DNA of 52,123 nucleotides from Patescibacteria group bacterium. Lineage in GTDB: Bacteria > Patescibacteriota > Minisyncoccia > Phycocordibacterales > WO2-35-19. Position numbers and translations under genes: made by a program. The DNA lies in NCBI GenBank assembly GCA_038065655.1, contig JBBTQO010000013.1, forward strand, positions 1 through 52,123, written 5' to 3'. Below are positions 20,760 through 46,454 of this stretch, one piece after another; the first letter of the stretch is position 1, and the number at the start of each line of letters is the position of its first letter. The notes beneath the pieces are model-generated. The model ran no database searches. It was not told the origin of the DNA and saw only the letters and a program-made list of their open reading frames with translations.

Positions 20760-20792
20760 AAAAAAAGCACCCCTACTTGGTAGCAGGGATGC
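20760..20792 (-). terminator. Intrinsic terminator overlapping the radical SAM stop codon
   Basis: 11-bp stem GCAUCCCUGCU/AGUAGGGGUGC followed by U7. Confidence 0.8.
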
Positions 20793-22329
20793 GAACGCTT
20801 ACGCGCAGAATGTTAGAAGGCAAGGGTCCCATCTGGCCCATTGAATGCTCATAGCGAGTAGACGGAGCACCAACATCGTACGGGATAGCAAGTCTATCCC
20901 GAACTTCCCGTTCCACCGCTCCGCGAATTGACACCAAGTCCTCTCTAGAGAGACCTTCTGTGAAAACGTAGGATTGGTAACCTCCATCCGGATCACCCTT
21001 ATAGTAGTCAGCGACTTCGGTAAAGTCGACTTCTACCTGAAATAGGGTGTCTCCCGTCTTTTGGTAAGTGTAGACCCAAATCCCAGGCCATTTCTGATGC
21101 GGAACAGCCAAATCGTAGTACGGTGTTCCCGGATAGCAAGTGATTATGGTCAGATCAAATGCTTCCGGCTTAACTTCAAGGAGCCAGTCTTTTGTCTCAC
21201 CTACAGTCACCATGCTTTCTCCGGGGTGGCCGATAGACATCAAAGCTTTCACTTTGAGACCATACTTTTTGGCGATTTCTACACAGCGAGTATTGTCTTC
21301 CCGCGTTGCTTTCTTGTTGATGGCTCTGAGAATACTCGGTGAACCTGACTCAAACCCCGTTAGGATCCATCGGAACCCCGCCTCATACATGGCCTCAGCC
21401 TGACTCTCGGTAAAGAGTTCAGCTTTGATGAAGCCTCGCAGACGCCATTCCACCCCCAAATCCTTTTGAGTTTTAGAGATAAGCTCCATGAGCTCGAGCA
21501 TCTTCGGATTAACATTAAGCTCGTCGTCATAAAACATAAAGCCGGAGCAGTCCATGGTCCTATGCATGTGCAACATCTCAGCAACAATGCTCTCTGAAGT
21601 ACGTGTGCGGACCCGGCGGAGCATAGGTGATTCCCTCCCACCACAGAACCCACAGTCAAATGGACAGCCGAGTTGGGCTATGAGCGAGTATGCTCGTCTA
21701 CCGTCGATTGAGTAGTGGTAACTTCCCACATCAACGAGTTCACGGGCGGGAAACGGTAGAGCAGTGAGTTTGTGGCTGGTTAGGAAAAGTGACGATTTTG
21801 GATCATCCGCATCCACTATCTTCGGAGCACCTGTTTTGTAGGCCTCAAAAATTGCTTCCTCACCATCTCCTGCCACTAAACAGTCAAATAATTTTTCGAG
21901 TGAACTCATGGCATCTACAGCCCGGCCGATTCTGCCTTCCTTGCGCTCACGCTTGAAGGCGGCATTCACAAGAGTTATGTGCGGACCACCCAGAATGATG
22001 CGAGCACCTGAACGTACAGCACGTATAGCCCTTGCAATTTTGGTTGCAGATGGAAGTTGAGGTGTTGTAGCAGTGATGCCAAAACACTTCGCCGTAGAAG
22101 ATTGTGTATGATCTGCCACGGCTTCCGTGAAATTACTGATGCCAGAGAGGTCCAGTACTTCTACCGGCACCCTCGCTTGTTCAAGTACAGCGGCAATGCG
22201 TAGGACTCCAAGTGTCATAAACACTCGCTCATCCATAAGAAAAACTGACGGAGGGATGATGAGACAAACCGGTCCCATCTTCCATTCGTGTTGAAGTAGA
22301 GACGGTAATACAATTTGTGTCAATCCCAT
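20773..22329 (-). CDS. B12-binding-domain radical SAM protein
   Basis: LGVLRIAAVL, GITATT, LGGPH, GDGEE, CPFDCGFC, YDDELN, GFESGS; likely start 22329 after SD GAAAGGAAGG. Confidence 0.88.
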   Translation of the reverse strand: MGLTQIVLPSLLQHEWKMGPVCLIIPPSVFLMDERVFMTLGVLRIAAVLEQARVPVEVLDLSGISNFTEAVADHTQSSTAKCFGITATTPQLPSATKIARAIRAVRSGARIILGGPHITLVNAAFKRERKEGRIGRAVDAMSSLEKLFDCLVAGDGEEAIFEAYKTGAPKIVDADDPKSSLFLTSHKLTALPFPARELVDVGSYHYSIDGRRAYSLIAQLGCPFDCGFCGGRESPMLRRVRTRTSESIVAEMLHMHRTMDCSGFMFYDDELNVNPKMLELMELISKTQKDLGVEWRLRGFIKAELFTESQAEAMYEAGFRWILTGFESGSPSILRAINKKATREDNTRCVEIAKKYGLKVKALMSIGHPGESMVTVGETKDWLLEVKPEAFDLTIITCYPGTPYYDLAVPHQKWPGIWVYTYQKTGDTLFQVEVDFTEVADYYKGDPDGGYQSYVFTEGLSREDLVSIRGAVEREVRDRLAIPYDVGAPSTRYEHSMGQMGPLPSNILRVSVRIPATK

Positions 22330-22573
22330 AAAAACCTTCCTTTCATTCCATAACATGTCGAAGAACTATCTTCTTTATTAATAATACACGAAATATGCAG
22401 ATATGGTCTATTGATTTATTTGGAAAAGTATTTTTTAAAACGGTAATTGCATATGCCAAATAATATCTGAAATATTTTGAATACTGGGGTAGTGATGAAA
22501 TCAAACTTATTTTTACCAAAAAACCGCACTATTTTTTTTAGAAATAGGGCACTCTACCGACAGATCCAGATTT

Positions 22574-36207: not shown

Positions 36208-37371
36208 TTAAATAATATTATTAAACACCACCCGCATTTGTTGGGCGACCAAATCCCAATCATATTTTTCTTTGACCATATTAAAGGCGTTATTTATTAT
36301 TTGATTTTTATTGGGATCGGTAATAACTTTTTGGATAGTCTTGGCGATACTCTGTGGATTTTGGGGCTCACAAAAATAACCTGTCTTTTCATCTATTAGA
36401 AAATCAACAATGCCACCAACTGAGGTTGCTATAACAGGGATTTTACAAGCCATTGCTTCTATAAAAGAATTACCAAACCCTTCCGAAAGCGAGGCTCTAA
36501 TAAAGATATCACAAGCTTCTAAATATTTTGGCATATCCTCGTGCGAAACAAAACCTTTGAAAACAACTTTCTCTGAAACATTAAGATTTTTAGCGAGCTC
36601 TTGTAATTCTTGTTTCAATTCACCCTCTCCAAATATTACAAATATAATATTTTGATTTAACTTAGGTAAAGCTTTTATAACATCCCCTACTCCGTTTTTT
36701 AAAACAAGTCTTGAAGTAGTTATAAGCGCAGTATCTCCTTCTTTTACTCCCAATTCTTCTCTTATTTTATTTTTTTCTTCTTGATTTATTTCCTTTTCAA
36801 ATTTGGACATATCCACTCCGTTTGGAATTATTTTTATTTCGCTAAGATAGCCAAATCTTTTAGCCCGTTCGGCTAAATATGAACTTAAAACTGTCAAAAT
36901 GCTTGTATTTTTCAGCGCTAACCACCAAGATAAATTTATGAGTCCAAATCGACTATTTTTAAAATGTTCTTCTGAATCTCCTTCTTGCAAGGTTAAAATT
37001 ATTGGTACTGGTTTCCAAAATCTTAAAATATTAGCTATAAAACCTGCGCCACTTGCATAAGTCACCATCATGCACCAATAAAAATTATAATTATTTTTAT
37101 TATTTAATTTTATCGCCTTCAACGCTCCCCAAAAAGGTAGAAGTAGTTTGTCTAAAATAGGTACACCAAATCCTAATCTGTAAACATTTACATTGCCGAC
37201 TCTCTCTGGCATGTCAAAGGGCATCTTTGACACTTTACTATTCAGTCTGGCGGTGATTAAATCAAATTCAATATCAGGAATTCTGTCAGTAATTTCTTTA
37301 ATAGCCACTTCCGCCCCGCCCACCAACGGATAATACGCTGTTGAAAATATGAGTATTTTTTTAGTTTTCAT
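36208..37371 (-). CDS. GT4 glycosyltransferase
   Basis: PLVGGAE, TLQEGD, SRLV.KNG, SEGFGNSFIEAM; ATG at 37371 lies 6 nt after TGcTATATT. Confidence 0.88.
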   Translation of the reverse strand: MKTKKILIFSTAYYPLVGGAEVAIKEITDRIPDIEFDLITARLNSKVSKMPFDMPERVGNVNVYRLGFGVPILDKLLLPFWGALKAIKLNNKNNYNFYWCMMVTYASGAGFIANILRFWKPVPIILTLQEGDSEEHFKNSRFGLINLSWWLALKNTSILTVLSSYLAERAKRFGYLSEIKIIPNGVDMSKFEKEINQEEKNKIREELGVKEGDTALITTSRLVLKNGVGDVIKALPKLNQNIIFVIFGEGELKQELQELAKNLNVSEKVVFKGFVSHEDMPKYLEACDIFIRASLSEGFGNSFIEAMACKIPVIATSVGGIVDFLIDEKTGYFCEPQNPQSIAKTIQKVITDPNKNQIINNAFNMVKEKYDWDLVAQQMRVVFNNII

Positions 37372-37406
37372 CCTCAAAATATAGCAAAAAACAAGCCTTT
37401 AAGCCA

Positions 37407-39197
37407 CTATTCTCCTTTTAGAATTTTCCTTAGCGTTTCCTCAGGCACTTCCTTTGTTTTTTCTGTTTTTTTAACTTCTTCCTTTTTTTCTTCTTTTTTG
37501 CTCTCAGCTTTTAGTTCTAAGCTTTTGGCTTTTTGTATCGCCTCCCTCAACGCGCTTACATTTTCTATAGTAGGTTCTTTGTTTTTATTTTTCTCCCCAT
37601 ACCTCAATTCTTGTAACGACACTGTCTCTTTTTTTTGCTCTGATTTTATCTCATCCCTTTTTTCTTCCCTTGCTACTGGCTGCTTGCTACTGGCTGCTGG
37701 TTTTTGTTTTACCGCTTCTTCTATCGCTTTTGCCAAAAAATTATTTTCTTTTTTGGGTTCTGCTTTTATTTCTTTTGGTTTATTTTGTTCATATCTTATC
37801 TCTTTTTTTGTCTCTGTGGGTTTTTCTTCTCTTCGTATTTCATGCTTCATATTTCTCCCTTCGATTTTTTCTGGTTCACCCACCCGCAATGGCTTCGCTA
37901 TAAGCGAGTCGGGCAGGTGCCATTCCTTAATAACCCTTTCTACTTCTGCTTTTGGAGAAGTATAATTTTTCCTAGACATTTCTAGAGCCTTATCTCTAAA
38001 AGAAATTTCTGGTTTTGGAAAAGGAGGTAAAGTGGTCGCTGAAAACGGCTGCGAAGCCACTCCATTTATCATTAGTTTTAAATAAACCTGAACAAATCCT
38101 AAATTAACGATATCTTCCATAGTAAAAGTCGGAGCAAATTCTTTTTCCAAAACTTCAGCATCATAGGAACCAACCCTAAAAGTAATCATAGTGCCAACGT
38201 TGCCAAACACGGCAGCTCTCACCTCTTCAGCCATCTGTTCAATATATTGATGAGTAATATTTAAACTTAATTTGTATTTTCGAGCCTCAGATAAAATATC
38301 AGCAAAACTTTTGTTAGCAAAAGATTGAAACTCATCTACATACAAATAAAAATTAGGCAATTTTTTAAGCTCTTTTGGGTCAGCATCCGCTCTAGACATC
38401 GCCGCTAAATATATTTTAGTGACAAGCATTGCTCCCAAAAGATTGGCATTGCCTTCTCCCACTAGCCCTTTAGATAGATTCACTATTAATATCTTCTTCT
38501 CATCCATTATTTTCCTGACATCAAAAGAAGATTTGGGTTGACCAATAATATTTCTAATAAGCGGATTAGATACAAATTGACCGACTTTGTTTTGGATAGC
38601 CGGAGTAGCCTCGGCCGCATATTTGTCCGTATATTTAGCAAATTCTTCTGTCCAAAAAGCCTTGGTGGTTGGGTCTTTGACATTGTCCACCACTTTATTA
38701 CGATAAGCTTTGTCAGTAAGCATCCTATTTATACTAAGCATTGTTGCTCCCGGATATTCAAGGAGTGCTGCCAGAGTATTTTGTAAAATGTAAGCCATTC
38801 TGGATGACCATTGATCCTCCCAAATCTTTTCAAAAGCGCTCATCAATCCTGAAACCACCAAGTGTCTTCTTTCCGGTCCAACATCCTCCATCACATTAAA
38901 CGAGATAGGAAATTCAGTATCAAAAGGAGCAAAATAAATAACATCTTTGATGCGATGTTCTGGAATATAATCAAGCAAGAGATCAGCAGTTTTGCCGTGC
39001 GGGTCTAAAAAGGCCACCCCCTCACCATTTTGAATATCTTGGATAGCCATATTTTCCAGCATCGTAGATTTACCCATACCAGTTTTGCCGATGGAATAAA
39101 TATGGCGAAGACGATCTTCAGCTTTAATACCAAACTTCACTCGCTTGTTGCGTGAGTCAGTCTCGGCAAAATAAGTTATCTTATCTTTCTCGTCCAT
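37407..39197 (-). CDS. VirD4/TraG-like (T4SS DNA-binding domain) P-loop ATPase with charged C-terminal tail
   Basis: DR.RHIY.IGKTGMGKS Walker A, LYVDEFQ Walker B, EARKY, HQY. Confidence 0.8.
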   Translation of the reverse strand: MDEKDKITYFAETDSRNKRVKFGIKAEDRLRHIYSIGKTGMGKSTMLENMAIQDIQNGEGVAFLDPHGKTADLLLDYIPEHRIKDVIYFAPFDTEFPISFNVMEDVGPERRHLVVSGLMSAFEKIWEDQWSSRMAYILQNTLAALLEYPGATMLSINRMLTDKAYRNKVVDNVKDPTTKAFWTEEFAKYTDKYAAEATPAIQNKVGQFVSNPLIRNIIGQPKSSFDVRKIMDEKKILIVNLSKGLVGEGNANLLGAMLVTKIYLAAMSRADADPKELKKLPNFYLYVDEFQSFANKSFADILSEARKYKLSLNITHQYIEQMAEEVRAAVFGNVGTMITFRVGSYDAEVLEKEFAPTFTMEDIVNLGFVQVYLKLMINGVASQPFSATTLPPFPKPEISFRDKALEMSRKNYTSPKAEVERVIKEWHLPDSLIAKPLRVGEPEKIEGRNMKHEIRREEKPTETKKEIRYEQNKPKEIKAEPKKENNFLAKAIEEAVKQKPAASSKQPVAREEKRDEIKSEQKKETVSLQELRYGEKNKNKEPTIENVSALREAIQKAKSLELKAESKKEEKKEEVKKTEKTKEVPEETLRKILKGE

Positions 39198-39207
39198 TTT
39201 GTTTATT

Positions 39208-39330
39208 ATAACTCATCCCCTCTCGCTTTGCTCGGCCCTTCTCTTATTACAAGAGAAGGGTTGCCTTCGTTCAAGCCTAGATTACCTCTCTTGTTGTAAG
39301 AGAGGTCGAGACGTAGTCCGTGTGAGTTAT
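39208..39330. repeat. Two inverted copies of palindromic family A
   Basis: 39208-39265 and 39284-39330 each start ATAACTCA and carry a CCT(C/T)TCTT...AAGA(G)AGG hairpin. Confidence 0.75.
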
Positions 39331-40505
39331 TTCCCAAGAATGGCTTCTCTCGTATAAACATTACTCGGATCCCAGAGCATCCAGGAAGTTAAACCCACAT
39401 CATAAGTGGCTTGGATTTGTTTGCGAACCATATCGGCTGTGTAATGCACGGGGTAATCATTGTCTTGAAGCCAAGGACGGAGTTGCAGCTGGTTTATCCT
39501 TTTCAAGACCGGAGCATTAGGGGTGCTCGAAGCAATTTCATTATGCAAGAAATTTGCTCTAGCCACCGCCGCATCCATACTAAACTTAACAATCTCATAA
39601 GGCACTTTATTTGGATCAGGCCAACCATTAAATGTTGGTGGATAATGTGATGGATAAACCATCGGGGAAACATAATCAAAATTTAGAAGCGCATATTCCA
39701 AAACTTGTCCGATATTCATATCGTCAGTGTTAGTAGTTGTCATACCAAACAAATCAGCTGAGGTAACAATGCCCGAGGAAGCAAGTTTAGAGTCAAGATA
39801 TTCAAAAAATTGCCTGAGCATCTCTTTTTTAGTAGTAGTGCCAGTATGCGCAAAATAAATATCTTTCATATCGCCATCCGATGGGAAACGGATATAATCA
39901 TAATTAATTTCATCAAAACCAACAGCATATGAAGAAGTAGAAATAGAAATTATATAATCCCAAAACGGTTTTGCCCCAACATCAATAAAAGAAATACCTT
40001 TCCTATCTTTCCAAACACCACCATCACTTTTTCTTTTAACGGCCAATTCCGGATGAGCTTTAGCATAAAGCGGATCTTGAAAGACGGTTACTCGGCCAAT
40101 TACATAAATATTTTTATTATGCAATTTTTCCACAAAATCCTGCATATCAGAAACTTTGCAACCAGTCCCGCTCAACTTATCAATCTCATCATTACCAGTC
40201 AAAAAAGAAACTGTGCCAGTATAATCTTTAATATCTATAACTACAGCATTGATTTCCGTTTCTTCTATAAGTTTTACAACTTTGTTCCTAAATGAAGGTG
40301 TGCCAGCCACACATTGAGTCATATAAATACCCTTAAGTGGCTCTGGGGTCCCCAGATGCTTTACTACTTTTAGTTCAGGTGTGCTAGAAGCCACCTCAGC
40401 CGAACGACTATTATAAGAAACTTCTGAAGAAAAAGTAAAAGAAGAAATAAAAAAAAGAACGATAATAACTATGATTCCTCCCAGTAAATAATTTTTTAAT
40501 TTCAT
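39327..40505 (-). CDS. Putative glycoside hydrolase (DUF4015-like TIM barrel), membrane-anchored
   Basis: KGIYMT, VIDIKD, FQDP, DYIRFP, DYVSPMVYPSH, PWLQD; start MKLKNY. Confidence 0.75.
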   Translation of the reverse strand: MKLKNYLLGGIIVIIVLFFISSFTFSSEVSYNSRSAEVASSTPELKVVKHLGTPEPLKGIYMTQCVAGTPSFRNKVVKLIEETEINAVVIDIKDYTGTVSFLTGNDEIDKLSGTGCKVSDMQDFVEKLHNKNIYVIGRVTVFQDPLYAKAHPELAVKRKSDGGVWKDRKGISFIDVGAKPFWDYIISISTSSYAVGFDEINYDYIRFPSDGDMKDIYFAHTGTTTKKEMLRQFFEYLDSKLASSGIVTSADLFGMTTTNTDDMNIGQVLEYALLNFDYVSPMVYPSHYPPTFNGWPDPNKVPYEIVKFSMDAAVARANFLHNEIASSTPNAPVLKRINQLQLRPWLQDNDYPVHYTADMVRKQIQATYDVGLTSWMLWDPSNVYTREAILGK

Positions 40506-40506
40506 T

Positions 40507-40605
40507 TTTTTCCAGAGGATGACCCTTGAACTGCCCCTGCCCCAAAGGGTCATCCTCAAATTCCGACCTCACCCCCAACCCCCTCTCCTTGCGAAGGAGA
40601 GGGGG
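40507..40605. repeat. Composite element: family B inverted repeat plus GCG-loop hairpin
   Basis: 13-bp IR (40515-27/40545-57) plus 12-bp IR (40579-90/40594-605); colinear with 51222-51337. Confidence 0.8.
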
Positions 40606-40870
40606 CTTCAGAAAATTTTAGTTCTTCTCTCTCCTCTATCTTCTCTTTTATTTCCCCCTTAAGATAAGGGGGATTAGGGGGGTTATTTTTTTTAGTTTTA
40701 ACTTTTGGTTTTGATTGCAGCTTTCTTAAAATGGCTGGACCAAAAGAAACAAGTAATAAAAATAAGCCAGAAAGAAAAACTAAAGCATCTCGCCAAACGA
40801 TTGGCACTCCAAGTAAAGGAATAATAACGAGCCAAACACCAAATGAAATATAGAAATTATTTTTATTCAT
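40556..40870 (-). CDS. Small two-TM membrane protein with a palindrome-derived tail
   Basis: GVWLVIIPLLGVP TM hairpin; TGcTAGTAT-N6-ATG. Confidence 0.7.
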   Translation of the reverse strand: MNKNNFYISFGVWLVIIPLLGVPIVWRDALVFLSGLFLLLVSFGPAILRKLQSKPKVKTKKNNPPNPPYLKGEIKEKIEEREELKFSEAPSPSQGEGVGGEVGI

Positions 40871-40905
40871 ATGAATATACTAGCACAAGAATCGCGAATC
40901 AAGAA

Positions 40906-40958
40906 AAAACCAAAGGGAACCCTTAAAGAATTTGCCCCAAAGGGTTCCCTTTGGTTTT
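40906..40958. repeat. Family B variant, 19-bp perfect inverted repeat
   Basis: AAAACCAAAGGGAACCCTT / AAGGGTTCCCTTTGGTTTT with GCCCCA in the loop. Confidence 0.85.
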
Positions 40959-40966
40959 AAAAGTGA

Positions 40967-40995
40967 AAGCCCCCGTCGCTTGCGCGCGGGGGCTT
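40967..40995 (-). terminator. Intrinsic terminator
   Basis: AAGCCCCCG/CGGGGGCTT stem followed by U-rich sequence on the minus strand. Confidence 0.75.
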
Positions 40996-41020
40996 GATTT
41001 GGACCGTTTGGTCCGAAGAA

Positions 41021-41962
41021 CTAGTTGACCGTCACAGTAGGGGCTTCAGTCATTTCCTGGAGCTGATCCAGCTTGTGGTCAACCGAAGACGGTGCCTTCA
41101 TGGCCGCAACCTTCTGGACCAGCCAATGGTCGGGTTCAATGAACCCCATCTGTTTCATCCGGTTAACTGCATGTTTGCAGTTGTCCAAAAGATTCTTTGC
41201 CTCCTTTCCAACCACACCGCATGCGTCAATGACGAATGCAACATGGAAGGGAGAGCTCTGGTTGGCCTCCCTTTCAATCCTGATGTCTTCAATGAGAGCC
41301 CACAAGCCGTCATCGGCCAAAAGCAGGTCCGCGACCCCTTCCTTGGGACATTGGGCAAGAAACGCCCCGCCATTTTTGCCGCCAAAGAAGAGATTCTTCT
41401 TGGCCTTAGCGACCAGGAGCTTCCAGTCGGAAACTTCCTGAATCGCCTTTTTCTGAAGAACGACTTCGAGAAGACCCCGGAGTTCGGCCCAGTACGAGCC
41501 AACCTGACGCCCCTCCATTTTGAGAAGTTGGCGGAACCTGGCTAAAGGGGTGTGGTCCTCAAGACCAATCCCTTTGGCCGCCCCATTCAACTTATCAGCG
41601 AAGTCGCTAGTTCCCGCCACTGCCGGCTGAACCCTGAGTGTCCGCGCTTGGGCCGTGGCCGCGACGAGCTTGGCCGGTGTAGGTCGCGCCACCATCGAAA
41701 CGGGCGCTTTCTGAACCACAACCACATTGGTGGCTGTGATCGGTTCAGCCTTCGCCTGAACAACATCGGCCTTGGTAGCCTTCTTGCTGTGCTTGGAGGC
41801 CAAGGCCCTTCTGGCGATCTCCTCCCAGAATTTCGGCTCATGACCGAGAATAGTAGAGAGGACCTTCCCCTTCTCTTCCTGAGAAGCGATGGGGTTGTCC
41901 CACACCGCGATCATCGAGCGGATACTTTCGATTTTCTCCGCAACCAGCTTCTTGATACTCAT
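41021..41962 (-). CDS. Hypothetical protein (GC-rich orphan)
   Basis: SD AAGGAG before ATG at 41962, own promoter and terminator; no recognisable motif. Confidence 0.75.
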   Translation of the reverse strand: MSIKKLVAEKIESIRSMIAVWDNPIASQEEKGKVLSTILGHEPKFWEEIARRALASKHSKKATKADVVQAKAEPITATNVVVVQKAPVSMVARPTPAKLVAATAQARTLRVQPAVAGTSDFADKLNGAAKGIGLEDHTPLARFRQLLKMEGRQVGSYWAELRGLLEVVLQKKAIQEVSDWKLLVAKAKKNLFFGGKNGGAFLAQCPKEGVADLLLADDGLWALIEDIRIEREANQSSPFHVAFVIDACGVVGKEAKNLLDNCKHAVNRMKQMGFIEPDHWLVQKVAAMKAPSSVDHKLDQLQEMTEAPTVTVN

Positions 41963-42046
41963 GTGAATCTCCTTGTGATTCGTTTCAAAGTTCGTAAACG
42001 CAACGCTTTTGTTTGCTTTCAAAAACACCGCAATTTCCTGTTGTAT

Positions 42047-42075
42047 AGTATATCAAACTCTGTATAAAAAGTCAA
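42047..42075 (-). promoter_or_regulatory. Near-consensus sigma70 promoter
   Basis: TTGACT-N17-TATACT. Confidence 0.8.
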
Positions 42076-42106
42076 GAGCCCACCTGCGCAACGCGCGGAT
42101 GGGCTC
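42076..42106 (-). terminator. Intrinsic terminator overlapping the stop of 42105-42791
   Basis: GAGCCCA...TGGGCTC stem followed by TTGACTTTTT. Confidence 0.65.
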
Positions 42107-42791
42107 ATTTGTAGCTCTGTTGAGCCGTTTTTCGTTTCTGACCAAACACCTTGCTAGCAAGGTATCTGGCCACCATCCGAGCGAATTCTCTCCTGTGTTC
42201 GTGGGTACCAATGTTTGTCGGCGTCAGAACAAAGTGATTTTCTGGACGACCATAAGCCGTGTAATTCCGAAAATCTGCTGGTAGGGGAAGAATCACTTTC
42301 TCTGCCAGAAGCATTTTGGCATCTTTTTTCCATCTTGCGAATCCGACCTTATACCTAAATAGATCGGACTGAAAATCTGAAATTGTATAGATAGTTTCCT
42401 CAAAACTATCAATCCAAGAATCTCTCAAGAATAAAAGTTCTTTCCAGTCAATATTGAACGCATCAACTGTGATTGGAAATGTTGGGATTGATGGAAGGAA
42501 GAAAACACCATCGGCGAAATGTCGCAGGTCAACTTTGGTATCGATCGCCGATAAAAAGACTAATCCCTTAGGATTTACACCAATCAGACTTAACCACTTC
42601 TCAACCAACAAAAACAGAGATCTCCCAATTGGGGTATCAGGATGTCTATCAAATCCTTCCATAATTAGACGCTTCACGTCTTTGTCAAAATCAGGCCTTT
42701 GGCCCCAAAATTTTGCAATCAGTTCTTCACCACTAGAGTGGCGACCGAAGATTGCATCTTCGAGGTCATGACCACTCCGATATGTTTTCAT
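42105..42791 (-). CDS. Hypothetical protein
   Basis: SD AAGGAG and own promoter; acidic/His motif SAIDTKVDLRHFADGVF...TVD. Confidence 0.75.
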   Translation of the reverse strand: MKTYRSGHDLEDAIFGRHSSGEELIAKFWGQRPDFDKDVKRLIMEGFDRHPDTPIGRSLFLLVEKWLSLIGVNPKGLVFLSAIDTKVDLRHFADGVFFLPSIPTFPITVDAFNIDWKELLFLRDSWIDSFEETIYTISDFQSDLFRYKVGFARWKKDAKMLLAEKVILPLPADFRNYTAYGRPENHFVLTPTNIGTHEHRREFARMVARYLASKVFGQKRKTAQQSYK

Positions 42792-42809
42792 ATGTACTCT
42801 CCTTTTTAT

Positions 42810-42838
42810 AGAGTACCAAATGTATGTTTAGAAGTCAA
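42810..42838 (-). promoter_or_regulatory. Sigma70-type promoter
   Basis: TTGACT-N17-TACTCT with TG extension. Confidence 0.6.
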
Positions 42839-42841
42839 GAG

Positions 42842-42886
42842 AACCAAGGGTAACCCTTAGAAAATTTTCAAGGGTTACCCTTGGTT
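42842..42886. repeat. Family B variant, 17-bp perfect inverted repeat; supplies the secF stop
   Basis: AACCAAGGGTAACCCTT / AAGGGTTACCCTTGGTT; secF ends ...AAC CAA GGG TAA inside the right arm. Confidence 0.85.
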
Positions 42887-43780
42887 ATTTTTCCAGTTAT
42901 TTATAGTCACCAAAAGAGTTGAACCAATAAATATTGATGAATACGTCCCGATGAAAATACCTATGAGGAGGGCGAGTGTAAAATTCTTGATTGTCTCCGG
43001 CCCAAATATATAAAGTACAAAAACTGCGAGCAAAACTGTTAGGGATGTGTTGATGGAACGGACAAATGTTTCGTTGATACTCTCCCCCACTATTGTCATA
43101 AAATCTTTTTTACTACCATAATCCTCATTTTTGTGCAAATTTTCCCTAACTCTATCAAAAACAACAATAGTATCGTGAACGGAAAATCCGAGTATGACCA
43201 GAAGCGCAGTTACAAACAAAGTGTCAACCTCAAATCCATAAAAATGCCCGAGGATGGCAAAGATGCCAGTCGGCACCAAAACATCATGGAGCAAAGCCAA
43301 GACTGTGACAATACCATAAACCCAAGATGATATTGGCCGCGAAACCTTTCTGAAAGCAAAAGCGATAAACAAAACAATTGCTAATAAAACTAAAAATATA
43401 GACACCAAAGATTTTTGCAAAGCTTCTTTACCCAAAACTGGCCCAATGGTGCTAAATGTTTTTTCTGTCGGAGTGTACTCTCCACCCAAAGAAAGCCCCC
43501 CAATTATAGAATCTTTTTCAGTTTGTGATATTTCTTTTAATCTGATTATATAGCCCTCGCCAGAAGATCTAATAGAGGCGTCTTTAAAATTTAAATCATT
43601 TAAAACTTTGCCTACTTCTTCACTGGTTGGTTTGCTACCAACAAAAGAAACATCAAGTAAACTACCGCCCGTAAAATCAATACTTGGGTTTAAGCCCCAA
43701 AAAAATATTGAAAAAATGGAAGCCAAAATCAAAACGGCCGAGAAAGTATAAAATATTTTTCTGTATTTGACTATAAACAT
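42875..43780 (-). CDS. secF: Protein translocase subunit SecF
   Basis: IDFTGG, IGP.LG.E, HD, GFSVHDTIVVFDRVRE, RSINTS, GTYSSIF. Confidence 0.96.
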   Translation of the reverse strand: MFIVKYRKIFYTFSAVLILASIFSIFFWGLNPSIDFTGGSLLDVSFVGSKPTSEEVGKVLNDLNFKDASIRSSGEGYIIRLKEISQTEKDSIIGGLSLGGEYTPTEKTFSTIGPVLGKEALQKSLVSIFLVLLAIVLFIAFAFRKVSRPISSWVYGIVTVLALLHDVLVPTGIFAILGHFYGFEVDTLFVTALLVILGFSVHDTIVVFDRVRENLHKNEDYGSKKDFMTIVGESINETFVRSINTSLTVLLAVFVLYIFGPETIKNFTLALLIGIFIGTYSSIFIGSTLLVTINNWKNNQG

Positions 43781-43782
43781 AT

Positions 43783-45078
43783 CTATTCTTTTTCAGAACT
43801 TAAAGCGAATAATATAGTACGGGAAGCGGTAATGGCAGAAAACATTGAAACCAACACGCCGATTAAGAACACTAGTGCGAAACCTTTGATAACCGGGGTG
43901 GAGGCAAAGTAATACAAAATAACAGCGGTTATAATACTGGATGAATTGGAATCACGAATAGAGCTCCAGGCTCGGTGGAAACCTTCCTTCAGAGCATCAT
44001 ATTTATTTTTACCTCTCTTTAATTCCTCCTTAGTTCTCTCAAAAATCAAAATGTTGGCATCTACAGCCATACCAATGGAAAGAATAAAACCAGCGATGCC
44101 AGTAGCAGTAAGTGTAACCGGTATGAGTTTAAATAAAACCAAATTTATAATTGTATAAATAGCCAAGGCCAAAACCGCTACCAATCCTTGGAAACGGTAC
44201 CAACCAATCAAGAAAAGAGCGACTACAATAAAGGCGTAAATTCCTGCTTTAACGCTATCATTAACGGCTTTATCTCCCAAAGTAGCACCAATAGTTTCAG
44301 TACTGACCAAATTAATAGGCATTGGCAAAGCGCCATAATTTAGATCACGCACTACTTGTTTGGCTTGTTCTGGTGTAAAATCACCTGTGATAACCGCTTC
44401 TCCGCCACTTATTTCTTCTCTGATGTAAGGCGCTTCTACTAAATTTCCATCCAAGAAAATGCCCAGCACACTACCAACATTTTCCCGAGTAATTTTAGCG
44501 AAAAGTTGCGAACCTTCCTCATTAAATTTCAAACCAATGATAGGTTTGTTAGCAAAATTTTGGTCAAACTGAATACTGGCTTTTTGAAGCATTCTACCAG
44601 TGAGTCCGGTTTCCAAAAACATTCCTGAGGAATCCGTTACATCGGTGGTAGCTTCGCCGGTTTTTACTTTTACTTTTCCTTCTTTAGATAAAAGTTTGAA
44701 TTCCAAAATGGGGGTTTCGCCTATTTTTTTTATTGCCTCATTTACATCTGTCACTCCAGGTAATTCAACAATCAATCGCTGTTCTGTACTGTCACCACCA
44801 AAAACACCACCTTGTTCAACTTGTATAATTGGTTCTGATACCCCAAAAAGATTTATACGTCTTTCTATGATATCTCGTAATGATTGCATTGCTGAAGAAA
44901 TATCTCCGCTTTGAATCTGAGAAATATCAGCTTTGTAAACCAAATGAGTGCCACCTGAGAGGTCAAGTCCCAATTTGAATTTGCGCACAGAATCAGCCTT
45001 TTGGGTGTTCCAGACAAAAAAACCAAAGGCTATCGCCATTGCTACAATTATAATTGCCCAGAACCTGTATTTGGCCAT
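43783..45078 (-). CDS. secD: Protein translocase subunit SecD
   Basis: LGLDLSGG, IERRIN.FGVSEP, VELPG, GMAVDANILIFER, GFA. Confidence 0.96.
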   Translation of the reverse strand: MAKYRFWAIIIVAMAIAFGFFVWNTQKADSVRKFKLGLDLSGGTHLVYKADISQIQSGDISSAMQSLRDIIERRINLFGVSEPIIQVEQGGVFGGDSTEQRLIVELPGVTDVNEAIKKIGETPILEFKLLSKEGKVKVKTGEATTDVTDSSGMFLETGLTGRMLQKASIQFDQNFANKPIIGLKFNEEGSQLFAKITRENVGSVLGIFLDGNLVEAPYIREEISGGEAVITGDFTPEQAKQVVRDLNYGALPMPINLVSTETIGATLGDKAVNDSVKAGIYAFIVVALFLIGWYRFQGLVAVLALAIYTIINLVLFKLIPVTLTATGIAGFILSIGMAVDANILIFERTKEELKRGKNKYDALKEGFHRAWSSIRDSNSSSIITAVILYYFASTPVIKGFALVFLIGVLVSMFSAITASRTILFALSSEKE

Positions 45079-45116
45079 ATTAGCTATAGGATATATGAAG
45101 TTAACCAAAAAAACAA

Positions 45117-46454
45117 CTAAACCCCATTTCTCGACAAAAGGGCTTTGATAGTTTTAAGAGCGATTTTGAGGTCGAGCATAAAAGAACGATTTTTGATGTA
45201 ATAAAGGTCATAAGAAAGTTTGCGACGAGTCTTTTCACTATCAGCATTTACTTTTGGGGGGTCATTATGATAAAGCTGGGCCCAACCCGAAAGCCCCGGT
45301 TTTATTAAATGACGAATATTATAATATGGTATTTTTTCTTCATAATGTTTAACTAATGTTGGAATTTCTGGGCGAGGGCCAATCATTGACATATCACCTT
45401 TAAAAACGCTCCACAGTTGAGGCAACTCATCTATTCTTAATTTTCTTAGCCATTTCCCTATCTTGGTTATTTTTTTACTAGACATGTCAGCGGAAATATC
45501 TTCCATCGTTCTAAACTTTTTTACTTTTATTATTTTATTATTCTTGCCAATTCGCTCTTGTTCAAAAAAGATGCTACCCCCATCATCTAATTTTATTAAA
45601 ACGTAGGCAAAAGGATAAAAAATTAAAGAAACTATCCCAACAACAAAAGATAACATTATATCGGTTATTCTTTTAATAACATCATAAGTAATCCTACTTT
45701 CAGTAGAAATATTTTCCAAAAACCAATTATAACGAACTAAAGAAAGAGGAATACGGTCAAAAAGATCCTCATAAATCTTATACATATCTATAAATTTCAC
45801 TCGTGAAAAAATAAGATTGTAGAGATGGGGCAAGATTGGTTCCACTTTTTCACTTTTTAGATCAATGGCGATAATCTGCACTTCTTCAGAATAAACCCGG
45901 GAAAGTATTTCGTCTTGAAAATTCATTCCAGCAATGCGATTAAGATCTACCGAGGAGATAAATTCCAATCCGTATCTGGGATTATGATTCACTTCTTCTA
46001 AAAGTTCTTTCATTTCTTCCCCGCTGCCGACAATAATACCTTTTTGTTTTGAGAGCGGATGTAAAAACCGATCACCATATATTCTCCAAAGAAGAATGAG
46101 GCCAAAAGAAATTACTAAATAAATAAAAAGGTTGGTTTTGGGAGTAATGCCAAAATAAGAAATAAAATAAAAAAATAAAACGGCAATAAAACTATTAGCA
46201 ATTTGGGTATTAAAAACAGTAGAGGGTAAGCGACTTTTTAAAATTAAGGTGTGTTTTTCGTAAAGTCCCGAAATAAAAAAGACCAAAACCCAAACACCAA
46301 TAATTATGGTAAACGGCCAAAAGTGCAGATCCCAATAATCACTTGAAGGGATTCCCCATTCTCGGAGAGCTAGGGCAGACCAAAGAGAAAGATACAGGAG
46401 CGCAATATCGCCTAAAAACAAAGCCAAAGTTTCCTTTTTACCAGATATAGTCAT
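45117..46454 (-). CDS. Polyprenyl-phosphate glycosylphosphotransferase (WcaJ/WbaP family)
   Basis: IKR..DI, KFRTM, RKLRIDELPQL, GPRPE, KPGLSGWAQ, YDLYY. Confidence 0.92.
   Translation of the reverse strand: MTISGKKETLALFLGDIALLYLSLWSALALREWGIPSSDYWDLHFWPFTIIIGVWVLVFFISGLYEKHTLILKSRLPSTVFNTQIANSFIAVLFFYFISYFGITPKTNLFIYLVISFGLILLWRIYGDRFLHPLSKQKGIIVGSGEEMKELLEEVNHNPRYGLEFISSVDLNRIAGMNFQDEILSRVYSEEVQIIAIDLKSEKVEPILPHLYNLIFSRVKFIDMYKIYEDLFDRIPLSLVRYNWFLENISTESRITYDVIKRITDIMLSFVVGIVSLIFYPFAYVLIKLDDGGSIFFEQERIGKNNKIIKVKKFRTMEDISADMSSKKITKIGKWLRKLRIDELPQLWSVFKGDMSMIGPRPEIPTLVKHYEEKIPYYNIRHLIKPGLSGWAQLYHNDPPKVNADSEKTRRKLSYDLYYIKNRSFMLDLKIALKTIKALLSRNGV

What the first reader, a model, noticed from the sequence alone, without database searches (positions are those of the whole stretch)
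40906..42886. Palindrome-bounded cassette of two self-contained orphan genes
Two related perfect inverted repeats (19 bp and 17 bp) bracket ~1.9 kb with two unknown genes. Each gene has a TTGACT-N17 promoter, an AAGGAG SD and its own terminator. Many neighbouring genes instead look leaderless and AT-rich; sampled 60-mers in 41021-41962 are >=50% GC versus ~30% in flanks. The upstream gene's terminator abuts the -35 box of the next promoter. The right repeat provides the secF stop codon, as expected for an insertion at a gene end. This could be a cassette-acquisition system using these palindromes as recombination sites.
Basis: partly seen in the sequence, partly recalled or inferred. Interest (0 to 1): 0.65.

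Follow-up and report, generated by a model that had tools for sequence, protein, structure and literature searches.

The report
Swappable two-gene module after secF
The two unknown genes are a real optional gene module that related ultra-small bacteria carry, lack or swap at one fixed chromosomal spot, but the flanking palindromes are unrelated copies of a genome-wide mini-repeat.

Summary

The cassette idea is half right.
- In this one family of Zambryskibacteria-like candidate-phyla-radiation bacteria, 22 of 39 genomes carry gene A (228 aa).
- In about 45 loci (some are the same genome from different collections), A lies directly after secF wherever upstream sequence is available. The one exception is a weak A-like match elsewhere in G014.
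- A is followed by one GC-rich gene (slot 2, here B, 313 aa).
- Nine relatives have a clean empty site, with secF running straight into the small membrane-protein gene.
- Slot-2 proteins are mosaic, and some show no detectable similarity to one another.
- The A tree rejects the flanking-gene tree (AU p = 1.7e-12).
- Between two near-identical species, identity falls from about 95% to 40-70% inside A and B. It returns to 96-97% at the promoter and terminator junction blocks.

The palindromes are not the recombination sites. They belong to a family of at least 33 dispersed hairpins, some inserted in frame in housekeeping genes. At the module boundaries I found such a hairpin in only one other carrier.

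The functions of A and B remain unknown. A shows only a weak nuclease-fold hint. The GC-richness of slot 2 in every lineage is unexplained.

The parts
42875..43780 (-). secF, the conserved left flank. Its last two codons and TAA stop lie inside hairpin R.
   Evidence: Pfam SecD_SecF_C, E = 1.4e-49. Relatives end secF 2-8 nt before the -35 box of P_A.
42842..42886 (.). Hairpin R: 17-bp perfect palindrome with an 11-nt loop. A copy of the dispersed mini-palindrome family, inserted in the secF-A spacer.
   Evidence: The same stem core CAAGGGTAACCCTT occurs at C5:12815. R is absent from this spacer in most other carriers.
42810..42838 (-). Promoter P_A: TTGACT, 17 nt (with TGG), TACTCT. This is the left end of the module.
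   Evidence: Read from the sequence. Conserved in relatives as TTGACTTAAAACA..CATTTGGTACTCT. Not tested experimentally.
42105..42791 (-). Gene A (228 aa), an orphan alpha/beta protein and the slot-1 gene of the module.
   Evidence: 42 homologue clusters, all from candidate-phyla-radiation bacteria. 118 representatives in 1.84 billion proteins. AlphaFold2 pLDDT 92.4. No Pfam, PHROG, PADLOC or NCBIfam hit.
42076..42106 (-). Terminator of A: 9-bp GC stem (one G-U pair), 13-nt loop. It overlaps A's TGA stop by 2 nt and abuts the -35 box of P_B.
   Evidence: The stem is kept in relatives through paired base changes.
42047..42075 (-). Promoter P_B: TTGACT, 17 nt, TATACT (TG-extended). Part of the conserved junction block between the two slots.
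   Evidence: CTTGACTTTTTATACAnnATTTGCTATACT is nearly invariant in most of the 19 carriers shown. This block stays 97% identical where the gene bodies drop to 40-70%.
41963..42040 (-). 5' leader of B, about 80 nt, with partly conserved TTTGCG...CGCA and TTTGAAAC elements.
   Evidence: No Rfam match at E <= 1. Structure not tested.
41021..41962 (-). Gene B (313 aa), the GC-rich slot-2 gene: N-terminal three-helix domain, disordered Ala/Pro/Val-rich linker (55-118), all-helical C-terminal domain.
   Evidence: GC3 is 0.66 and even along the gene. Slot-2 genes in all relatives are GC-rich and mosaic.
40967..40995 (-). Terminator of B: AAGCCCCCG, 11-nt loop, CGGGGGCTT, then TCACTTTT. This is the right end of the module.
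   Evidence: Conserved in L002 and L019. The CAAATCAA lead-in is shared with two other GC-rich genes.
40906..40958 (.). Hairpin L: 19-bp perfect palindrome with a 15-nt loop. A second copy of the dispersed family, inserted between B's terminator and the next promoter.
   Evidence: Near-copies at C12:11092, C9:67258, C1:90751 and C2:47865. Absent from this spacer in the other carriers examined.
40874..40902 (-). Promoter of the small membrane-protein gene, with an extended -10 box a few nt before the ATG. It belongs to the flank, not the module.
   Evidence: The same extended -10 box precedes the gene in empty-site genomes.
40556..40870 (-). Small membrane-protein gene (104 aa), the conserved right flank.
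   Evidence: Present directly after secF in 8 of the 9 empty-site genomes (none detected in L034) and after slot 2 in carriers.
40515..40557 (.). Third family hairpin: 13-bp stem, 17-nt loop TGGGGCAGGGGCAGTTC on the minus strand.

Best explanation
Window 40967-42838 is an optional two-slot gene module. Its order is P_A, gene A, terminator of A fused to P_B, leader, gene B, terminator of B.

**Shown**
- The module sits at one fixed site, immediately after the secF stop codon and before the promoter of a small membrane-protein gene.
- It occurs in one family of Zambryskibacteria-like candidate-phyla-radiation bacteria.
- Some members carry it and others have a clean empty site.
- Slot 1 always holds an A homologue.
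- Slot 2 always holds one GC-rich gene. Its protein is a mosaic of swapped domains, and some slot-2 proteins show no detectable similarity to the others.
- Carriers do not inherit the module strictly vertically.

**Inferred**
- Whole modules and single gene bodies are exchanged among lineages by homologous recombination.
- The crossovers fall in the conserved flanking genes and in the three conserved promoter/terminator junction blocks.
- Each gene is its own insulated transcription unit. In that respect the module works like a phage 'moron', but it sits in a bacterial chromosome.

**The palindromes**
- The two flanking palindromes are later, lineage-specific insertions of a dispersed mini-palindrome family. 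That family resembles the Rickettsia palindromic elements.
- They landed in the two boundary spacers. The right one extended secF by two codons.
- They play no part in defining the module.

**Function (low confidence, about 0.3)**
The module may be a conflict or host-interaction pair. In that reading A is a divergent restriction-endonuclease-fold enzyme and B is a fast-diversifying partner.
For: **Fixed site**
- A follows secF in 19 of 20 other family genomes.
- It does so in the other loci found by protein look-up.
- It does so in 19 of 20 metagenome loci; the twentieth contig is too short to show.

**Presence and absence**
- 22 of 39 family genomes carry A, including 11 of 17 in the window's own genus.
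- Outside the family, only 7 of 247 other genomes of the order have even a partial match.
- Nine genomes have empty sites. In eight, secF is followed after a 7-85-nt spacer by the small gene, then DUF4015 and the TrwB-like gene. In L034 no small-gene match was found and the DUF4015 match starts 18 nt after the secF stop.

**Scattered distribution**
- On the flanking-gene tree, presence/absence needs 5-7 changes. It is no more clustered than shuffled labels.

**Exchange between lineages**
- The A tree rejects the flank tree: AU p = 1.7e-12 for the 8-genome clade and 0.004 for window + L041.
- L056's A groups at 100/99 support with the distant L053/L054 and carries their slot-2 type.
- L056's nearest relative switches at the module boundaries, within about 150 nt.
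- L049 and L048 are 90-98% identical in the flanks, 57-70% in A's body and 38-48% in B's 5' half. They are 96-97% identical at P_A and at the A-B junction block.
- In that pair, four-fold synonymous differences are 0.40-0.42 in A and B against 0.07-0.20 in the flanks.

**Fast divergence**
- Flanking proteins are 61-91% identical between lineages. A is 25-58% and B 12-65%.

**Regulatory blocks**
- Promoters and terminators are conserved, with compensatory stem changes.

**Palindromes**
- At least 33 family copies are spread over the genome.
- 11 of the 19 canonical-loop copies lie in frame inside housekeeping genes.
- They are absent at these junctions in nearly all other carriers.
Against: - Three family hairpins fall within 2.4 kb here, where about 0.13 would be expected from 33 copies in 603 kb (my Poisson estimate, P about 3e-4).
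- One other carrier (L047) has a family hairpin, close in sequence to hairpin L, in its secF-A spacer. Some attraction of these hairpins to the module's boundaries is therefore not excluded.
- Recombination is inferred only from tree conflict and mosaic identity. No recent transfer with sharp breakpoints was seen.
- Part of the divergence could be very fast evolution in place.
- Ancestral presence with repeated loss cannot be told apart from repeated gain.
- All six same-species assemblies are identical here and show no polymorphism.
- Promoters and terminators are consensus matches only.
- The function rests on Foldseek hits far below significance (E >= 0.1).
Confidence: 0.8

Rival explanations
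1. Palindrome-bounded cassette. The two hairpins act as att- or attC-like sites, and a recombinase uses them to insert or excise the two-gene block.
For: - Two related perfect palindromes bracket the block.
- Empty sites and different cargo exist in relatives.
- Hairpins cluster locally: three in 2.4 kb.
- L047 has a related hairpin at the left junction.
- The genome holds 7 Y1 (HUH) transposase-like genes that could act on hairpins.
Against: - Both hairpins are missing from the same junctions in nearly all of the other carriers examined.
- The module ends are defined instead by P_A and B's terminator, 2-8 nt after the secF stop.
- The hairpins belong to a family of at least 33 copies found after many genes and inside housekeeping genes.
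- The two hairpins differ in stem and loop, so they are not a target duplication.
- No recombinase gene is nearby. The only PF00589 gene is on contig C9.
- The closest carrier, L041 (flanks 91% identical), has a different short hairpin at the left junction.
Confidence: 0.05
2. Ancient resident genes. A and B were in the family's ancestor, were inherited vertically, were lost cleanly several times, and simply evolve very fast. No exchange between lineages is involved.
For: - The module is at the same site in every carrier, in both deep clades of the family.
- It is family-specific.
- No mobility gene is present.
- The regulatory blocks are conserved.
Against: - The AU tests reject the flank topology for A (p = 1.7e-12 and 0.004), and L056's A and slot-2 type match a distant clade.
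- Identity switches abruptly from 96% to 40-60% and back between the sister species L049 and L048.
- Synonymous differences in A and B are about twice those of the flanks in that pair.
- Slot-2 proteins are domain mosaics.
Confidence: 0.12
3. Remnant of a phage or other mobile element. The module is a moron or cargo pair left by a GC-richer virus or plasmid of these bacteria, and that element keeps reseeding it.
For: - Moron-like build: own promoter and terminator, atypical GC, present or absent between the same neighbours.
- GC-richness persists in all alleles, which would fit a separate gene pool.
- A few other GC-rich orphan genes in this genome share the same 3'-end motif.
Against: - No relative of A or B was found in 2.9 million viral contigs.
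- No meaningful PHROG hit.
- There are no phage or integrase genes nearby. The neighbours are core envelope genes in every genome.
- The module is never seen at another site, apart from one weak A-like gene in G014.
Confidence: 0.08

Closest known systems
Phage 'morons' (independent promoter-gene-terminator units inserted between conserved genes of lambdoid phages; named from my own knowledge)
   Same: Own sigma-70-type promoter and intrinsic terminator for each gene. Base composition unlike the surroundings. Present in some genomes and absent between the same two neighbours in others.
   Different: The module sits in a bacterial chromosome between secF and envelope genes, not in a phage. It always occupies one site and has two slots. 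The same gene family (A) always fills slot 1. No phage relative was found.
Variable loci held between conserved flanking genes and exchanged by homologous recombination, such as capsule or O-antigen loci and chromosomal hotspots of gene turnover (from my own knowledge)
   Same: Fixed position, conserved flanks, divergent or non-homologous alleles, a tree that conflicts with the flanks, and empty alleles.
   Different: Only two small genes of unknown function. Conserved promoter/terminator blocks inside the locus seem to serve as extra crossover points. The slot-2 cargo is GC-rich in every allele.
Integron gene cassettes (attC plus IntI)
   Different: No integrase nearby. No palindrome between the two genes. 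The genes carry their own promoters. The palindromes are not shared by other carriers.
Rickettsia palindromic elements (RPE), and REP/RAYT repeats of proteobacteria: comparison for the two flanking hairpins only
   Same: Short, dispersed palindromic repeats found between genes and inserted in frame into housekeeping genes. Y1 HUH transposase-like genes are present in the genome.
   Different: Much shorter (43-71 bp). Stems are always perfect but differ between copies. The loop is conserved (TGGGACCGGGGCAnTTC). No sequence relation to RPE or REP was tested. A link to the Y1 genes is not shown.

Membership tests
Integron gene cassette | IntI-type tyrosine recombinase with attI next to the cassettes | tested here: not met
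   The genome has one PF00589 match, at C9:10227-10757 on another contig. None of the neighbouring genes is a recombinase.
Integron gene cassette | An attC-type imperfect palindrome at the 3' end of every cassette, shared across carriers | tested here: not met
   No long palindrome lies between A and B. Hairpins L and R are absent at these junctions in nearly all other carriers.
Integron gene cassette | Cassettes usually lack promoters and are read from a common Pc promoter | tested here: not met
   Each gene has its own conserved TTGACT, 17 nt, TAnnnT promoter-like site. This is sequence evidence only.
Moron-like insulated accessory unit | Present in some genomes and absent between the same two neighbouring genes in related genomes | tested here: met
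   22 of 39 family genomes carry it. Nine genomes have empty sites.
Moron-like insulated accessory unit | Own promoter and factor-independent terminator | tested here: met
   Consensus promoters and GC-rich hairpins followed by T runs, conserved with compensatory changes. No transcript data.
Moron-like insulated accessory unit | Base composition unlike the host genome | tested here: met
   B is 55% GC with GC3 0.66, against 37% and 0.31 genome-wide. This holds for slot 2 in all relatives.
Moron-like insulated accessory unit | Located in a phage or prophage genome | tested here: not met
   The neighbours are secDF, DUF4015, a TrwB-like ATPase and glycosyltransferases in every genome. No viral contig encodes A or B.
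Dispersed mini-palindromes (RPE-like), for hairpins L and R | Many dispersed copies of one palindromic design | tested here: met
   33 copies have perfect stems of at least 13 bp ending in C[CT]TT[TC]. Shuffled genomes give 0-1 perfect hairpins of any kind.
Dispersed mini-palindromes (RPE-like), for hairpins L and R | Copies inserted in frame into protein-coding genes | tested here: met
   11 of the 19 canonical-loop copies lie inside long open reading frames whose products read like LepA-, IscS- and RecG-type housekeeping proteins (my own reading; no family search was run), with the frame kept. L and R themselves are intergenic.
REP/RAYT system, for hairpins L and R | A Y1 HUH transposase (RAYT) gene flanked by its own repeats | tested here: inconclusive
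   The genome has seven PF01797 matches. By comparing coordinates, none is directly flanked by a family hairpin. No detailed test was made.
PD-(D/E)xK (restriction-endonuclease-fold) nuclease, for protein A | The alpha-beta-beta-beta-alpha-beta core fold | tested here: inconclusive
   The model is confident (pLDDT 92.4). Foldseek hits to EcoRV, splicing endonuclease, HamA, Mrr, VRR-NUC and Holliday resolvases are all weak (E >= 0.1, TM about 0.15).
PD-(D/E)xK (restriction-endonuclease-fold) nuclease, for protein A | Catalytic D ... (D/E)xK residues on strands 2 and 3 | tested here: inconclusive
   D88, D94, T108 and D110 are invariant, and E11 and K148 nearly so. No lysine lies two residues after D110.
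Known anti-phage defence or toxin-antitoxin systems | A match to a catalogued defence or toxin-antitoxin protein family | tested here: not met
   No PADLOC, Pfam, NCBIfam or PDB-sequence hits for A or B.

The most novel reading that the evidence does not exclude
The slot after secF is a family-wide conflict or host-interaction locus of a kind not yet described. It would work as follows.
- It is a two-gene module whose alleles are shuffled among these episymbiotic bacteria, using conserved promoter/terminator blocks as built-in crossover points.
- Its second gene is a hypervariable mosaic protein kept GC-rich (GC3 0.44-0.80) in AT-rich genomes by some dedicated cause. Candidates are a separate gene pool, biased gene conversion at a recombination hotspot, or selection on the mRNA.
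- A would be a divergent nuclease-fold effector.
- B would be its specificity or immunity partner, or an effector handed to the neighbouring TraD/TrwB-like coupling ATPase.
Probability: 0.2. Interest if true: 0.7.

Novelty: new variant of a known kind. Interest (0 to 1): 0.45.

Why it matters
Candidate-phyla-radiation bacteria have tiny, streamlined genomes, and little is known about how they gain and swap accessory genes.

This locus is a clear, well-sampled case of that process:
- one fixed slot;
- clean empty alleles;
- two unannotated protein families;
- exchange between lineages that seems to use conserved regulatory blocks rather than a dedicated recombinase.

The second gene stays at 46-60% GC in genomes of 30-43% GC across alleles that share almost no sequence. 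Ordinary mutational drift towards the host's base composition should have erased that difference. It therefore offers a concrete test case for what keeps base composition local.

The result also warns that the abundant mini-palindromes in these genomes can mimic cassette boundaries.

Tried and rejected
- **Overlapping antisense gene as the cause of B's GC-richness.** The codon-aligned antisense frame has only one stop in the window. It has 1-7 stops in relatives, exactly as many as synonymous shuffles give, so it is a by-product of GC3.
- **Known RNA families.** No Rfam match at E <= 0.05 in 39000-44000.
- **Family and structure look-ups.** Pfam, PHROGs, PADLOC, NCBIfam and PDB-sequence searches found nothing usable for A, B, five other slot-2 types or ten distant A-like proteins. 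Foldseek on B gave only generic helical matches such as 14-3-3, with TM about 0.2.
- **Viral origin.** No A or B relative was found in viral contigs. The B alignment was too divergent to scan with.
- **An apparent deletion of B in L015.** This is a run of N in the scaffold, not a deletion.
- **Within-species polymorphism.** Six assemblies are identical over the region apart from two single-base differences in secF.
- **Literature.** Three searches found no description of this locus or of these palindromes.
- **The one off-site A-like gene (G014).** Its neighbours gave no functional clue.
Full report
**1. What is in the sequence**

The window is contig C13 of a 603-kb, 21-contig genome with 36.9% GC. 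Protein homologues carry names such as Candidatus Zambryskibacteria and Paceibacterota. All genes from 36208 to 46454 run on the minus strand. Read 5' to 3' on that strand, the order is:

| Feature | Window coordinates |
|---|---|
| secD | 45108-43783 |
| secF | 43780-42875 |
| hairpin R | 42886-42842 |
| promoter P_A | 42838-42810 |
| gene A (228 aa) | 42791-42105 |
| GC-rich terminator hairpin of A | 42106-42076 |
| promoter P_B (its -35 box touches the hairpin) | 42075-42047 |
| leader of about 80 nt | about 42040-41963 |
| gene B (313 aa) | 41962-41021 |
| terminator of B | 40995-40967 |
| hairpin L | 40958-40906 |
| promoter, then small membrane-protein gene (104 aa) | promoter 40902-40874; gene 40870-40556 |
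| third hairpin | 40557-40515 |
| DUF4015 gene | about 40502-39327 |
| TraD/TrwB-like ATPase gene | 39197-37407 |

These assignments rest.

- Both palindromes are perfect (19 and 17 bp).
- Both promoters are TTGACT, 17 nt, TAnnnT.
- AAGGAG lies 7-8 nt before each ATG.
- The secF TAA stop lies in an arm of hairpin R.
- B contains the most GC-rich 600-nt window in the whole genome (57.5%; mean 36.8%, sd 4.2).
- B has the second-highest GC3 of 539 ORFs (0.66; mean 0.31, sd 0.064).

**2. The palindromes are not specific to this block**

A genome-wide search found 44 perfect hairpins with a stem of at least 13 bp and a loop of 8-22 nt. Shuffled genomes give 0-1.

Thirty-three of the 44 share one design:
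- an arm of the type ..CAA(A)GG....CTT(T/C);
- a loop that in its canonical form reads TGGGACCGGGGCAnTTC, in either orientation;
- a perfectly complementary second arm.

The stems differ between copies but always pair. Hairpins L and R, and the third hairpin at 40515-40557, are members with slightly decayed loops. R's stem core CAAGGGTAACCCTT recurs at C5:12815. Near-copies of L lie at C12:11092, C9:67258, C1:90751 and C2:47865.

Eleven of the 19 canonical-loop copies lie in frame inside long housekeeping genes. Judged from their sequences, the products look like LepA-, TypA-, TatD-, IscS-, KsgA-, aminoacyl-tRNA-synthetase- and RecG-type proteins. No family search was run on these frames.

Earlier notes of this scan describe the same family as resembling the Rickettsia palindromic elements. 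I reached the same result independently before reading them.

**3. Relatives: first impression, then correction**

Look-ups by protein first suggested that A and B are conserved, syntenic genes. In the relatives found this way, the order is Bac_transf, secD, secF, A homologue, a 300-439-aa gene, small membrane-protein gene, DUF4015, TrwB-like gene, glycosyltransferase.

In those relatives the long palindromes are absent:
- The secF-A spacer is 36-55 nt with no hairpin in four of them.
- It holds an unrelated short CCCCTCTCC-type hairpin in two.
- The spacer after slot 2 holds only the terminator.

A later check of 17 further carriers found a family hairpin only in L047, in the secF-A spacer. 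So the hairpins arrived late and separately. The closest carrier, L041, has flanks 91% identical and still lacks them.

**4. The module is nevertheless accessory**

- A profile of A finds it in 22 of 39 genomes of the family, including 11 of 17 in the window's own genus.
- It is essentially absent outside the family. Seven of 247 other genomes of the order have only partial N-terminal matches.
- Nine family genomes without A were examined. In eight, secF is followed after 7-85 nt by the small membrane-protein gene, then DUF4015 and the TrwB-like gene. In L034 no small-gene match was found, and the DUF4015 match starts 18 nt after the secF stop. Two of the nine have SecF 82-84% identical to the window's.
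- In the empty sites the small gene keeps its own extended -10 promoter. That promoter therefore belongs to the flank.
- In carriers the module starts 2-8 nt after the secF stop, at the -35 box of P_A, and ends at B's terminator.
- A is directly downstream of secF in 19 of 20 other family genomes and in 19 of 20 metagenome loci. The twentieth metagenome contig is too short to tell. The single exception is a weak A-like gene elsewhere in G014.

**5. Slot 2 is hypervariable and always GC-rich**

- Between A and the small gene there is always one ORF of 204-463 aa. Its GC is 0.46-0.60 and its GC3 0.44-0.80. The flanks have 0.30-0.43 GC.
- Most of these proteins form one network of partial matches, with N-terminal and C-terminal domains in different combinations.
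- Two groups show no detectable similarity to the rest: L053/L054/L056, and L055.
- None has a Pfam domain.
- B's codon use differs wholesale from its neighbours. AAG:AAA is 22:9 in B against 6:37 in secDF. CAG:CAA is 12:3 against 3:14. Only 12% of B's codons end in A. The bias is even along the gene.

**6. Evidence for exchange between lineages**

- Flanking proteins are 61-91% identical between lineages, but A is only 25-58% and B 12-65%.
- On a tree of secF + DUF4015 + TrwB-like + secD (30 genomes), presence/absence needs 5-7 changes and is not clustered.
- The A tree rejects the flank tree. The AU test gives p = 1.7e-12 for an 8-genome clade and p = 0.004 for window + L041.
- L056, which sits inside that clade by its flanks, has an A that groups at 100/99 support with the distant L053/L054. 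It also carries their slot-2 type.
- Along L056, the nearest relative switches at the module boundaries, within about 150 nt.
- The sister species L049 and L048 give the sharpest picture:

| Region | Nucleotide identity |
|---|---|
| secD/secF | 90-98% |
| P_A and the start of A | 96% |
| A's body | 57-70% |
| A's end plus terminator of A/P_B block | 97% |
| B's leader and N-terminal half | 38-48% |
| B's C-terminal domain | 67-85% |
| from just after B's terminator onward | 95-98% |

- In that pair, four-fold synonymous differences are 0.40-0.42 in A and B against 0.07-0.20 in the flanks.
- P_B (CTTGACTTTTTATACAnnATTTGCTATACT) is almost invariant across most carriers.

I infer that the three regulatory blocks and the flanking core genes provide the homology for swapping gene bodies and whole modules. 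This is inference from patterns. No recent event with sharp breakpoints was seen.

**7. What A and B might do**

- **A.** The model is confident (pLDDT 92.4): an alpha/beta protein with invariant D88, D94, T108, D110, W126, Q141, R182 and N185. Foldseek against PDB and against viral models returns only weak hits (E >= 0.1). They are thematically consistent: EcoRV, splicing endonuclease, HamA, Mrr, VRR-NUC, Holliday resolvases and PD-(D/E)xK nucleases. I treat a restriction-endonuclease-like core as a lead, at about 40%.
- **A's wider family.** A profile search of 1.84 billion representatives finds 118 proteins. About 70 are full length. The rest are shorter proteins matching only the N-terminal half, and the ten of these that I scanned have no Pfam domain.
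- **B.** It has a three-helix N-terminal domain, a disordered Ala/Pro/Val-rich linker (55-118) and an all-helical C-terminal domain. There is no credible fold match.
- Neither protein shows an obvious signal peptide or membrane helix by eye; no predictor was run.
- **Tentative reading.** Patchy distribution, fast and mosaic evolution, and exchange between lineages fit a conflict or host-interaction pair. This is a low-confidence reading (about 0.3).

**8. What remains unexplained**

- **Why slot 2 stays GC-rich in every lineage.**
  - An overlapping antisense gene is rejected.
  - A foreign phage pool has no support.
  - Biased gene conversion at a recombination hotspot is attractive. It does not explain why A, which is exchanged too, is only mildly enriched.
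- **Other GC-rich genes.** Two other GC-rich orphan genes of this genome (C1:42132-42974 and C17:18898-19404) share B's 3' end design: a short hairpin, CAAATCAA, then a large-loop terminator. This hints at a wider class.
- **Hairpin clustering.** Three family hairpins lie within 2.4 kb where about 0.13 would be expected. This is also not explained.

**9. Limits**

- Promoters and terminators are sequence matches only.
- Six same-species assemblies show no structural variation.
- Three literature searches found no description of the locus.

**10. Verdict**

It is best described as a moron-like two-slot variable locus. That makes it a new variant of a known kind, built from two unannotated protein families.

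Noticed in passing
Genome contigs C1:5398-5658, C15:12229-12495, C20:3108-3341, C6:13126-13407, C18:4696-4956, C4:12216-12452, C1:57744-57995; also locus L004:1521-2735: This 603-kb genome has seven Y1 (HUH) transposase-like genes (PF01797). In another assembly of the L002-type relative, two such genes lie directly downstream of the B homologue. They are candidates for moving the mini-palindromes, but none is directly flanked by a family hairpin.
   Followed up: partly
Genome contigs C1:42132-42974 and C17:18898-19404 (outside the window): Two other GC-rich orphan genes (GC3 0.58-0.59, N-termini that look like signal peptides by eye) have strong own promoters. They share B's 3' end design: a short hairpin, CAAATCAA, then a large-loop GC terminator. 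The first 70 aa of the C1 gene's product match no other genome of the family.
   Followed up: partly
Genome contigs C12:27006-27641 and C21:7792-8466: Two GC-rich paralogues (GC3 0.64-0.67, shared F(L/N)RKEPCW motif). About 125 nt of their upstream sequence, promoter plus leader, is identical between them.
   Followed up: no
window 40556-40700 (3' part of the small membrane-protein gene) and 40579-40605: The C-terminal tail of the 104-aa protein seems built from other repeat families: a CCCCCTCTCCTT hairpin and a PPNPPYLKGE-coding motif. Both recur at many loci in the genome, and the motif also occurs in the small gene of L014.
   Followed up: no
window 41963-42040 and the matching regions of L039-L051: B's 5' leader (80-140 nt) keeps TTTGCG...CGCA stem-like and TTTGAAAC elements across many carriers. 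It has no Rfam match. It may be a cis-regulatory RNA.
   Followed up: no
window 40515-42886: Three copies of the mini-palindrome family occupy three consecutive intergenic spacers within 2.4 kb, where about 0.13 would be expected from 33 copies in 603 kb.
   Followed up: partly
Genome G028, C8:21876-22770 (locus L035): secF matches in two overlapping pieces in different frames. This suggests a frameshift or an assembly error in that genome.
   Followed up: no
window 20773-22356: A 527-aa ORF with raised GC (0.49, GC3 0.48) is another compositional outlier in the window.
   Followed up: no
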